This document shows, in pieces, positions 60,901 through 63,900 of a stretch of 64,000 bases of DNA. Where the stretch lies: the NCBI RefSeq assembly GCF_013167455.1, contig NZ_CP038328.1; one strand, given 5' to 3'. The stretch's first letter is position 1. Each line of letters opens with the position of its first letter. The position numbers were made by a program. The DNA comes from Escherichia coli O157:H7 (GTDB lineage Bacteria; Pseudomonadota; Gammaproteobacteria; Enterobacterales; Enterobacteriaceae).

Positions 60901-63900
60901 TAAACATCGTGATCCGGGCACCACCAGTTCGCTTGCTGGTTTTTCAGCAAATCGGAGCCCCACAGCACAATGGTTTTGCTGTTCTGCAATACCAGCGGCC
61001 AGGAGGTTTGCTGTTCATACACTTCCATCGAACCGACTACGCGCGGCAGGATCACCTGCGCAGCACCAGTAGAGTAATCTCCGCCCGTACCAACGCTATT
61101 ACCATGCAAGGCAATAGCTTTCGCCAGCATCCCCGAAGCGTTATGGAACATCCCCGTCGATTGCCAACCACTGGCGGTCAGCAAGGCACTCGGCCCGTGA
61201 GTTTTCTGTACGCGTTCCAGTTCTTCATAGAACATGTCGAGGGCTTCATCCCAGCTCACACGCACAAAACGGTTATCACCGCGCTGGGAGGTGTCGCTCA
61301 GATGGCGCTTACGCAGCCAGTCCACGCGTACCATCGGATAACGAATACGCGCCGCGTTGTGTACATGATCCGGCAATCCGGCAATCATTTTCGACGGATA
61401 TTTATCCAGTTCGAACGGTTTTGCCGCCACAAAGCGACCATCCTTCACCGTCGCGCGGATAGCCCCCCAGTGCGACCCGGTAAGAATGCCCTCTTTCGAG
61501 ATGACAGCCTCAGTCGCCGCTTGCGCCGCAGTCGCACGGCGCGACGTTAACAATGACGGCCCCAGCATCCCGGCGACGGTTAAGCCGCCGAGTTGTGCCA
61601 GAAAACGCCGACGTGATGCCTGAAAGAGATCGTTATTGTTCATTATTTTTCTTCCTTCTTATCGCCGTGAGCCTTACCTGCGGTGTCAGACGCATTCATT
61701 TGCAGATATTTCAACAAGGTGCGTTCTTCACGTTTATCGAGGCTGGTAAAGCCGATCATGCCGTTGAGCGTGCCAATCCAGCCGTTAGCGTCAAAGTGAG
61801 AGATTTCCGGTGCGCCGTGGCACTGGTTACAGGTGCCGTTGTACAACGAATCCGCATAAGCCCAGATCGGTTTGATATCGTTCACCATGTCACCTTTCTT
61901 CATCCACGCGGTGGCCTGCAACTTGCTCCACTCGGTATTGGTGTCGGCAACGGTGGTTTTCTCCAGCGTTTTTACCTGCTGCTGCACATCACCACGAATC
62001 GAGGCAACAAAGATGCGTTTACCTGGGAATTGGGTGAGTACACGCTGACGTCCGGCGCTTTCTGTCCAGCCGGTAATTTCAATTTGCAGCCAGTCGCCGT
62101 CACGTTTAAGGACTTTCACTTCCGAGGCAGGCAGCAGAGAACCAGAGGCTTCTTTATCGCCTTTCGCCGCATAAATTGGCTTAATATCAATAGAGTACAG
62201 CGTGTCACCACTGTCATTAGCACCGGCGCGCAGCTCATCGAACTGCTTACGGAAGCCGCTACTCATATCCGGTAACTGGTGGGCAATACCTTTATGACAG
62301 TCGATGCAGGATTGATTATCTTTCGCTGCCACCTTCATCTGACGTGCCGCTTCAGGATGCTGCTTCGCATGATCCATCGCATCGTAGTTATGGCAGGAGC
62401 GACAGGTTGCCGAGTTGTTTTCTTTCATTCGCGCCCATTCACGCTCGGCAAGTTCCGCGCGTTTGGCTTCAAATTTTTCAGGTGTATCAATGGAGTGGGC
62501 AATAAAGGTCTGGTAGATATCGTTGCTCGCTTCCAGTTTGCGCTTCACCATGCCTGGAATATCCGGCGGGATATGACAGTCATGGCATTCAGCTCGCACG
62601 CCGGAGGCGTTCTGGAAATGCACCGACTGTTTATATTCTTCATACACTGGTTGCATACTGTGGCAACTGACACAAAATTCGGTTGTGCTGGTGACTTTGA
62701 TCCCAACGTGTGGCAATACAATCAGCGCAATGCCAATCACAATCCCAATAGCGACCAGCGCCAGTACCGACCAACGAGCACTGGGTCGGCGTAGCGCGTT
62801 CCAGAGTTTCCGCATAATAGCCCCTGTAAAATTATGGTTTAGTGAAGCGATCTTAATGAGTAAATATGAACAGCGGCACTGGTCAGGATGAACGGCTTAC
62901 GGCAGAATATGAACAGATATGAACAGAATGAGTAAAACCCTCTGATGCCACATCACATTGTTATTGTTGAAGATGAGCCGGTTACCCAGGCGCGATTACA
63001 ATCCTACTTCACTCAGGAGGGGTATACCGTTTCCGTTACGGCGAGCGGTGCCGGGCTACGGGAAATTATGCAGAATCAGCCGGTGGATTTAATTCTGCTG
63101 GATATCAACTTGCCCGATGAAAATGGCCTGATGTTAACCCGCGCCCTGCGAGAACGCTCAACGGTGGGGATTATTCTGGTTACCGGACGCAGCGATCGGA
63201 TTGACCGTATTGTTGGGCTGGAAATGGGCGCAGACGATTACGTCACCAAACCGCTGGAACTGCGCGAACTGGTAGTACGGGTAAAAAATCTGCTCTGGCG
63301 AATCGACCTCGCGCGACAAGCTCAACCGTACACTCAGGACAACTGCTATCGCTTTGCGGGTTATTGCCTGAATGTGTCGCGCCATACGCTGGAGCGGGAT
63401 GGTGAGCCGATTAAACTGACCCGCGCAGAGTATGAAATGTTGGTGGCATTTGTGACCAATCCGGGCGAAATTCTCAGCCGTGAACGTCTGCTGCGTATGC
63501 TCTCTGCGCGTCGGGTGGAAAACCCTGACCTGCGCACCGTCGATGTGTTAATTCGTCGTTTACGCCATAAACTCAGCGCGGATTTACTGGTGACGCAACA
63601 TGGCGAAGGTTATTTCTTAGCCGCTGATGTGTGCTGATAAAAATAGACCGGACGAAATCCCCCAGGCGACAGCGAGCGGCGGATATGTTCGCGGTCGGCA
63701 TTTTTCGGCGTCAGAACTAAAATCGGTGGGCTGACATTATCAGACACCGATTGCCCCTGTAATTGCCTGATGGCCTGCTCAACTGCCAGTTCCCCCTGCC
63801 AGACCATTTGATCGCTGGCAGCCATAATCACTCTTCCCCGCTTCAGCCCGCGATACACCTGATGTGAAAGATAAAACGACACCACGGTAAGCGGCGTTTT

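What the first reader, a model, noticed from the sequence alone, without database searches (positions are those of the whole stretch)
62816..62944. Four tor boxes in the torR-torC divergent promoter
Decameric CTGTTCATAT repeats, three perfect and one variant, sit in the expected arrangement for TorR activation of torCAD, confirming locus identity and orientation.
Basis: partly seen in the sequence, partly recalled or inferred. Interest (0 to 1): 0.2.

Follow-up and report, generated by a model that had tools for sequence, protein, structure and literature searches.

The report
Known TorR binding sites, torC promoter
The 129-base gap between the torR and torC genes carries the four well-known "tor box" binding sites for the regulator TorR, identical to those mapped in E. 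coli K-12, so this is ordinary textbook regulatory DNA.

Summary
Window 62816-62944 is exactly the gap between torC (- strand, start codon ends at 62815) and torR (+ strand, starts 62945). On the torC strand it holds CTGTTCATAT three times (62917-62926, 62907-62916, 62864-62873) and CCGTTCATCC once (62886-62895). All four copies point the same way, with start-to-start spacings of 10, 21 and 22 bases.

The exact decamer occurs nowhere else in the 64 kb window (3 found, 0.08 expected). The window is E. coli O157:H7-type. Its box region is base-for-base identical to K-12, where the boxes were defined, and a 2022 paper gives the same four sequences.

The arrangement and spacing persist in Escherichia, Salmonella, Edwardsiella, Providencia and Grimontia. 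A TAAGAT hexamer sits a fixed 8 bases after box 4 in the enterobacterial sequences (TACTAT in Grimontia), and I infer it is the torC -10.

The mechanism is the published one. TorR bound at box 1-box 2 covers the torR start site and represses torR. Phosphorylated TorR then also fills boxes 3 and 4 and activates torCAD.

The feature is already known and of low interest.

The parts
62917..62926 (-). tor box 1, CTGTTCATAT. It is the half of the high-affinity TorR site furthest from torC.
   Evidence: Exact match. Identical in K-12. The sequence matches the published box.
62907..62916 (-). tor box 2, CTGTTCATAT, directly abutting box 1. Together they read TTCATA-N4-TTCATA.
   Evidence: It is the only TTCATAN4TTCATA in the window at up to 1 mismatch.
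62886..62895 (-). tor box 3, CCGTTCATCC. It is the variant, low-affinity box with 7 of 10 matches.
   Evidence: The published sequence is the same. The core GTTCA is invariant in five genera.
62864..62873 (-). tor box 4, CTGTTCATAT, the box nearest the torC promoter.
   Evidence: The core TTCATAT is invariant in five genera, although it was not part of the search key.
62850..62855 (-). Inferred torC -10 hexamer TAAGAT, 8 bases after box 4. The predicted torC transcript start is near 62843, giving a leader of about 28 bases.
   Evidence: Inference from conservation. The hexamer is invariant at a fixed distance from box 4 in Escherichia, Salmonella, Edwardsiella and Providencia, and is TACTAT at the same place in Grimontia. 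It is below the threshold of the consensus scan, as expected for an activator-dependent promoter.
62880..62908 (+). Inferred torR promoter: -35 TGGTCA (62880-62885), a 17-base spacer that contains box 3, and -10 CAGAAT (62903-62908, overlapping box 2 by 2 bases). The predicted start is about 62915, inside box 2 and next to box 1.
   Evidence: Read from the sequence. TGACCA is kept in most of the enterobacterial sequences aligned (TGACTA in one Providencia). It matches 8 of 12 consensus bases, below the scan threshold. It agrees with the published statement, recalled from Ansaldi et al. 2000, that box 1-box 2 covers the torR start site.
62945..63637 (+). torR, the OmpR/PhoB-family response regulator that binds the boxes.
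   Evidence: NCBIfam NF008034, 427 bits against a cut-off of 275. It differs from K-12 TorR at 2 of 230 residues.
61643..62815 (-). torC, a pentahaem c-type cytochrome and the first gene of the activated torCAD operon.
   Evidence: NCBIfam NF011606, 882 bits against a cut-off of 455.
58501..61643 (-). torA (59097-61643) and torD (annotated start near 59100, stop at 58501), the rest of the operon.
   Evidence: NCBIfam TorA 1611 bits and TorD 262 bits. Annotation of the collinear O157 genome agrees.

Best explanation
This is the TorR operator and divergent promoter region of the E. coli tor locus, in its O157:H7-type allele. TorR is an OmpR/PhoB-family response regulator that recognises the direct-repeat decamer CTGTTCATAT. 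Box 1 and box 2 abut each other at a 10-base period, which is one helical turn, and form a tandem high-affinity site. That site lies over the torR -10 and start site, so TorR, phosphorylated or not, blocks RNA polymerase there and keeps torR under constant negative autoregulation. When TMAO is sensed by TorT and TorS, TorR becomes phosphorylated. It then also occupies the weaker box 3 and box 4, which lie 21 and 22 bases further on (two helical turns each, so on the same face of the DNA). Box 4 ends 8 bases before the torC -10, at the position where a -35 element would be, and the promoter has no usable -35 of its own. TorR bound there recruits RNA polymerase and switches on torCAD. Shown here: the sequences, their positions, spacing and orientation, their identity to K-12, the gene identities, and cross-genus conservation. 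Taken from the literature: TorR binding, affinities, autorepression and cooperativity. Inferred here: the exact -10, -35 and start positions.
For: The exact boxes and their local enrichment are. The boxes are identical to K-12. The published box sequences are the same, with box 3 described as low-affinity and TorR shown to bind boxes 1, 2 and 4 in gel-shift assays. TorRS is cited as the exceptional negatively autoregulated two-component system. The flanking genes are TorR, TorC, TorA, TorD and TorT. Fifteen of 35 genome hits to the box 1-box 2 18-mer lie between torR and torC orthologues in Escherichia, Salmonella, Edwardsiella, Providencia and Grimontia, and in the twelve intergenic regions measured the box offsets are 10/21/22. 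With one sequence per genus, box 3 has 6 of 10 invariant columns, box 4 has 7 of 10 and the -10 has 4 of 6, against 0 to 2 invariant columns in each spacer. A divergent E. coli locus found by similarity rather than by the 18-mer keeps four boxes (CTGTTCATAT, CCATTCATAT, CCATTCATCC, CTATTCATAT), the same spacing and TAAGAT.
Against: Nothing in the data argues against it. There are four limits. No binding or transcription was measured here. The primary papers (Simon et al. 1995; Ansaldi et al. 2000) are not in the held library, so the affinity ranking, the autorepression details and the helical-phase experiment are quoted from memory. The promoter consensus scan finds no sigma-70 site on either strand, so the -10 and -35 assignments rest on conservation and position only. 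The perfect conservation of boxes 1 and 2 in the cross-genus set is partly by construction, because those loci were retrieved with an exact 18-mer from box 1-box 2.
Confidence: 0.96

Rival explanations
1. The decamer repeats are a chance or slippage-derived repeat cluster with no regulatory role, and the resemblance to tor boxes is coincidental.
For: At 2 mismatches the decamer is not enriched across the window. Twenty of 35 genome-wide hits to the 18-mer are in unrelated AT-rich genomes with no TorR or TorC nearby, so the motif alone can arise by chance.
Against: There are three exact copies in 129 bases against 0.08 expected in 64 kb. The sequence is identical to the experimentally studied K-12 region. 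Box cores and exact spacing are kept down to Grimontia, whose TorR is only 53% identical, while the spacers drift.
Confidence: 0.01
2. The boxes are bound as three TorR dimers rather than as four independent monomer sites. Box 1 and box 2 take one dimer. Box 3 and box 4 each take a dimer whose second subunit sits on the non-consensus 10 to 12 bases immediately upstream of that box. This gives a continuous protein array about 80 bases long. It is a refinement of the main explanation, not a contradiction of it.
For: OmpR/PhoB-family regulators bind as head-to-tail dimers on tandem repeats with a period of about 10 to 11 bases (established knowledge). The gaps of 11 and 12 bases before boxes 3 and 4 are each just one half-site long. 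The box 3-box 4 spacer TGACCAGTG is fairly well conserved in Enterobacterales.
Against: The spacer sequences show no tor-box core. The conserved TGACCA is equally explained as the torR -35 read on the other strand. The spacer is not conserved in Grimontia.
Confidence: 0.3
3. The O157-type allele differs functionally from K-12. The base change between box 4 and the -10 (A in place of G on the torC strand at 62861) alters torCAD promoter strength.
For: Three substitutions relative to K-12 all fall between box 4 and the torC ATG. One lies in the 8-base gap between box 4 and the inferred -10.
Against: That 8-base gap is the least conserved stretch of the region, with 0 of 8 invariant columns across genera. 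E. albertii and E. whittamii carry the same allele as the window, so K-12 may hold the derived state. No expression data exist here.
Confidence: 0.1

Closest known systems
E. coli K-12 torR-torC intergenic region with tor boxes 1 to 4 (Simon et al. 1995, Mol Microbiol 17:971; Ansaldi et al. 2000, J Bacteriol 182:961)
   Same: Both intergenic regions are 129 bases long. They have the same four boxes, spacing and orientation, and the same flanking genes. They are identical at 126 of 129 bases, including every base from the torR ATG through box 4.
   Different: There are three single-base differences downstream of box 4, at window 62861, 62829 and 62820. TorR differs at 2 of 230 residues.
Salmonella enterica tor boxes (PMC9239176, serovar Cerro 87)
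   Same: The same four box sequences are reported. S. enterica subsp. arizonae and diarizonae carry the same layout and the same TAAGAT -10.
   Different: The sequences flanking the boxes diverge, and the arizonae box 3 is CCGTTCATTC. The phosphorothioation interplay described in that paper concerns a dnd system that was not examined here.
Shewanella oneidensis torECAD promoter TorR site (TTCATA-N4-TTCATA; Gon et al. 2002, recalled from memory)
   Same: Box 1-box 2 in the window reads TTCATA-TCTG-TTCATA, which is the same tandem motif.
   Different: As I recall it, Shewanella has a single tandem site rather than a high-affinity pair plus two separate low-affinity boxes. This was not checked here.
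PhoB pho boxes and other OmpR-family operators
   Same: These are also direct repeats with a period of about 10 to 11 bases that stand in for a missing -35. The proximal repeat ends about 10 bases before the -10, and here box 4 ends 8 bases before TAAGAT. The half-site CTGTCAT resembles CTGTTCAT.
   Different: The tor region splits its sites into one tandem pair and two single boxes two helical turns apart. The distal pair doubles as the autorepression operator of the divergent regulator gene.

Membership tests
tor boxes (TorR operator of torCAD) | Four decamers matching CTGTTCATAT: boxes 1, 2 and 4 perfect, box 3 CCGTTCATCC | tested here: met
   The published sequences are quoted.
tor boxes (TorR operator of torCAD) | All boxes are direct repeats in the torC-sense orientation | tested here: met
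   All exact matches are on the - strand. There is a direct-repeat family and there are no inverted repeats.
tor boxes (TorR operator of torCAD) | Located in the short intergenic region between divergent torR and torC, upstream of torC | tested here: met
   ORF coordinates, family assignments and RefSeq annotation of identical DNA.
tor boxes (TorR operator of torCAD) | Box 1-box 2 contiguous, with boxes 3 and 4 at whole numbers of helical turns so that all lie on one face | tested here: met
   Start-to-start spacings of 10, 21 and 22, the same in all twelve tor intergenic regions measured from five genera.
tor boxes (TorR operator of torCAD) | Sequence identity with the experimentally characterised K-12 region | tested here: met
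   126 of 129 bases identical, with all four boxes and the spacers between them identical.
tor boxes (TorR operator of torCAD) | Cognate TorR, and the TorS and TorT signalling partners, encoded at the locus | tested here: met
   TorR is an equivalog hit. A TorT C-terminal fragment runs off the window end. torS lies outside the window but is adjacent in the collinear O157 genome.
tor boxes (TorR operator of torCAD) | Physical binding of TorR, TMAO-dependent activation of torCAD and autorepression of torR | not testable with these tools
   This rests on the literature: gel shifts on boxes 1, 2 and 4 in PMC9239176, negative autoregulation cited in PMC2820520, and primary papers recalled but not held.
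OmpR/PhoB-type activator site replacing the -35 element | The proximal repeat abuts the position of the -35 of a promoter that has a -10 but a poor -35 | tested here: inconclusive
   A conserved TAAGAT lies 8 bases after box 4 and the sequence at the -35 position is poor. However, no start site was mapped here and the consensus scan reports no promoter.

The most novel reading that the evidence does not exclude
A Dam methylation site (GATC) overlaps the inferred torC -10 hexamer (TAAGATC, window 62849-62855). It is invariant in every enterobacterial tor promoter aligned: Escherichia, Salmonella, Edwardsiella, Providencia and a divergent E. coli lineage. If this is more than a side effect of -10 conservation, the methylation state could tie torCAD promoter activity to replication timing. 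That would be a layer of tor regulation I have not seen described.
Probability: 0.07. Interest if true: 0.35.

Novelty: already known. Interest (0 to 1): 0.05.

Why it matters
It matters little beyond annotation. The feature fixes the identity and orientation of the tor locus in this window and marks a textbook example of one operator array serving two divergent promoters, activating torCAD and autorepressing torR. The modest added value is comparative. The four-box layout with exact 10/21/22 spacing and a -10 a fixed 8 bases after box 4 is held from Escherichia to Grimontia (Vibrionaceae). That supports the published same-face, cooperative-binding model and gives a sequence-based placement of the torC -10.

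Tried and rejected
1. I searched for the decamer with 2 mismatches across the window. It was not enriched (64 against 58), so only the exact-copy cluster is informative.

2. The sigma-70 consensus scan of 62700-63050 found nothing on either strand. Promoter elements therefore had to be inferred from conservation.

3. I tried to read the primary papers by DOI and PMC id: Ansaldi 2000, Carey 2018, and Roggiani and Goulian 2015. None is held.

4. I considered the sequence after box 4 (TTACTCATTA, 5 of 10 matches) as a fifth box. I rejected it because it is not conserved in other genera and it overlaps the -10.

5. I considered the exact 10-base repeat TTTACTCATT that brackets the array as functional. 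It is 9 of 10 in K-12 and absent in Salmonella, Edwardsiella and Providencia, so it is probably lineage-specific.

6. I looked for other TorR tandem sites in the window and found none.

7. I checked whether the tor locus is plasmid-borne. The 'plasmid' records are 90 kb to 4.9 Mb and all non-mobilizable, which suggests mislabelled chromosome pieces.

8. Rfam shows no RNA family in the intergenic region.

Full report
**What is in the sequence**

Window 62816-62944 is the 129-base gap between two divergent ORFs. One is a 390-aa ORF on the - strand (61643-62815) and the other is a 230-aa ORF on the + strand (62945-63637).

Read on the - strand, the gap is:
cagagggttttactcatt CTGTTCATAT CTGTTCATAT tctgccgtaag CCGTTCATCC tgaccagtgccg CTGTTCATAT ttactcat TAAGAT cgcttcactaaaccataattttacaggggctatt, followed by the ATG of the - strand ORF.

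| Box | Window coordinates | Sequence |
|---|---|---|
| 1 | 62917-62926 | CTGTTCATAT |
| 2 | 62907-62916 | CTGTTCATAT |
| 3 | 62886-62895 | CCGTTCATCC (7 of 10) |
| 4 | 62864-62873 | CTGTTCATAT |

All four boxes have the same orientation, with start-to-start distances of 10, 21 and 22 bases. They lie 48 to 111 bases upstream of the ATG, so none is in coding sequence.

**Is it more than chance?**

- The exact decamer occurs three times in the 64 kb window on both strands, all three inside these 129 bases. Shuffles give a mean of 0.08 and never reach 3.
- With two mismatches allowed, the motif is at background level across the window (64 against 58). The signal is therefore the local cluster of exact copies.
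- The tandem form TTCATA-N4-TTCATA occurs only here, even with one mismatch allowed.

**What the surroundings are**

- The + strand ORF passes NCBIfam's curated TorR model (427 bits, cut-off 275).
- The - strand ORF passes the TorC model (882 bits, cut-off 455).
- TorA (1611 bits) and TorD (262 bits) follow torC on the - strand.
- After torR, a TorT C-terminal fragment runs off the end of the window.
- A 601-base query across the region is 100% identical to many O157 chromosomes, and 5417 of 5426 complete E. coli genomes hold it, annotated as torR and torC.
- The window as a whole is collinear with an O157 chromosome at 99.98% identity. In that genome the order is torD-torA-torC / torR / torT / torS.

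**Comparison with the reference case**

- Aligned with K-12 MG1655, the intergenic region is identical from the torR start through box 4. It differs at three bases between box 4 and the torC ATG, at window 62861, 62829 and 62820.
- A 2022 paper on Salmonella TorR prints the typical box as CTGTTCATAT for boxes 1, 2 and 4, and CCGTTCATCC for box 3. It calls box 3 a low-affinity site and reports gel shifts of TorR on boxes 1, 2 and 4 but not on box 3 alone (PMC9239176).
- Another paper cites TorRS as the exceptional two-component system with negative autoregulation (PMC2820520).
- The primary papers (Simon et al. 1995; Ansaldi et al. 2000) are not in the held library. What I take from them is from memory and is marked as such.

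**Related sequences**

A scan of one genome per species for the 18-mer TGTTCATATCTGTTCATA gave 35 loci.

- Fifteen lie next to torR and/or torC orthologues (between the two wherever both are within the stored stretch): Escherichia (coli, albertii, whittamii), Salmonella enterica subsp. arizonae and diarizonae, four Edwardsiella, three Providencia and two Grimontia.
- The other twenty are in unrelated, mostly AT-rich genomes with no TorR or TorC nearby. I take these as chance matches.
- In all twelve tor intergenic regions measured, the four boxes sit at the same offsets of 10/21/22. This includes Grimontia marina, whose TorR is only 53% identical.
- With one sequence per genus, box 3 has 6 of 10 invariant columns, box 4 has 7 of 10, and a hexamer 8 bases after box 4 has 4 of 6. 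The spacers have 0 to 2 invariant columns each.
- The full conservation of boxes 1 and 2 in this set is partly by construction, because the loci were retrieved with that 18-mer.
- An independent check comes from a divergent E. coli strain found by similarity only, at 82% identity in the intergenic region. It carries CTGTTCATAT, CCATTCATAT, CCATTCATCC and CTATTCATAT at the same spacing, with the same TAAGAT.

**Promoter elements (inferred)**

- The hexamer TAAGAT (62850-62855, - strand) is invariant in all the enterobacterial sequences. It is replaced by TACTAT at the same place in Grimontia.
- I take it as the torC -10, which predicts a start near 62843 and a leader of about 28 bases. Box 4 then spans about -30 to -21, next to a position with no usable -35. 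This is the arrangement seen for PhoB-type activators.
- On the other strand, TGGTCA (62880-62885), a 17-base spacer and CAGAAT (62903-62908) form a weak promoter for torR. Its predicted start, about 62915, falls inside box 2 next to box 1.
- That agrees with the published statement, recalled from memory, that the box 1-box 2 region covers the torR start site.
- Neither promoter reaches the threshold of the consensus scan, so these assignments are inference.

**How it works**

This is the published model; binding and expression were not measured here.

1. TorR binds box 1-box 2 with high affinity whether or not it is phosphorylated. This blocks the torR promoter and gives constant negative autoregulation.
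2. With TMAO present, TorT and TorS phosphorylate TorR.
3. Phosphorylated TorR then fills boxes 3 and 4 cooperatively from the same face of the helix and activates torCAD.

A refinement that my data do not exclude is an array of three dimers, in which the partner subunits for boxes 3 and 4 sit on non-consensus DNA.

**Verdict**

The feature is already known and is identical in its functional parts to the K-12 reference. Interest is low. The comparative result is a small addition rather than a discovery: the fixed 10/21/22 spacing and the fixed -10 distance hold across five genera.

Noticed in passing
window 62855-62864 and 62927-62936: An exact 10-base direct repeat (AATGAGTAAA on the + strand, TTTACTCATT on the torC strand) brackets the box array, one copy just before box 1 and one just after box 4. 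K-12 has 9 of 10. It is not kept in Salmonella, Edwardsiella or Providencia, so it is probably lineage-specific or a relic of how the array arose.
   Followed up: partly
window 62849-62855 (- strand): A GATC (Dam) site overlaps the inferred torC -10 (TAAGATC). It is invariant in all the enterobacterial tor promoters aligned, including a divergent E. coli lineage, but absent in Grimontia.
   Followed up: no
window 62861, 62829, 62820: The only three differences from K-12 in the intergenic region all lie between box 4 and the torC ATG. E. albertii and E. whittamii share the window's allele.
   Followed up: partly
L039 (E. coli 2020CK-00188), 1-5115: This E. coli strain has a divergent tor locus, 82% identical in the intergenic region. 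torS lies directly after torR on the same strand with no torT between them. Its boxes are variants with ATTCAT cores, but the spacing is unchanged.
   Followed up: partly
L005, L006, L013, L020 (Edwardsiella); L018, L030 (Providencia); L014, L021 (Salmonella): TorR of Edwardsiella and Providencia is 85-87% identical to the window's TorR. That is higher than Salmonella arizonae and diarizonae (81-82%), although those genera are more distant relatives of E. coli. This hints at lateral transfer of the tor locus.
   Followed up: no
window 58409-58489 (+) and 32958-33151 (+): There are two Rfam matches above the gathering score. One is naRNA4 (a REP-derived nucleoid-associated RNA) just beyond the end of torD. 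The other is Ysr251 (Yersinia antisense sRNA family, 184 bits), which maps to about the 3' end of phoH, on the strand opposite to it.
   Followed up: no
window 6506-8125 (-) and 21657-22469 (+): A ShlB/FhaC-family two-partner-secretion ORF (539 aa) and a winged-helix ORF (270 aa) are intact in the window. The same genes are flagged as pseudogenes, with an internal stop and a frameshift respectively, in the 99.98% identical O157 FDAARGOS_293 record. This is either strain variation or sequencing errors in that record.
   Followed up: partly
window 1-20100: By collinearity with the annotated O157 genome, this part of the window carries three gene groups: a fatty-acid or polyketide-like cluster (acpS, SDR, FabZ-like, ACP, ketosynthases), a filamentous-haemagglutinin-type secretion pair, and a chaperone-usher fimbrial operon. 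None of this is related to the tor finding.
   Followed up: no
plasmid collection hits H43-H54: Twelve E. coli records labelled as plasmids carry the tor locus. They are 90 kb to 4.9 Mb long and all are typed non-mobilizable. This suggests chromosome pieces or whole chromosomes filed as plasmids.
   Followed up: partly
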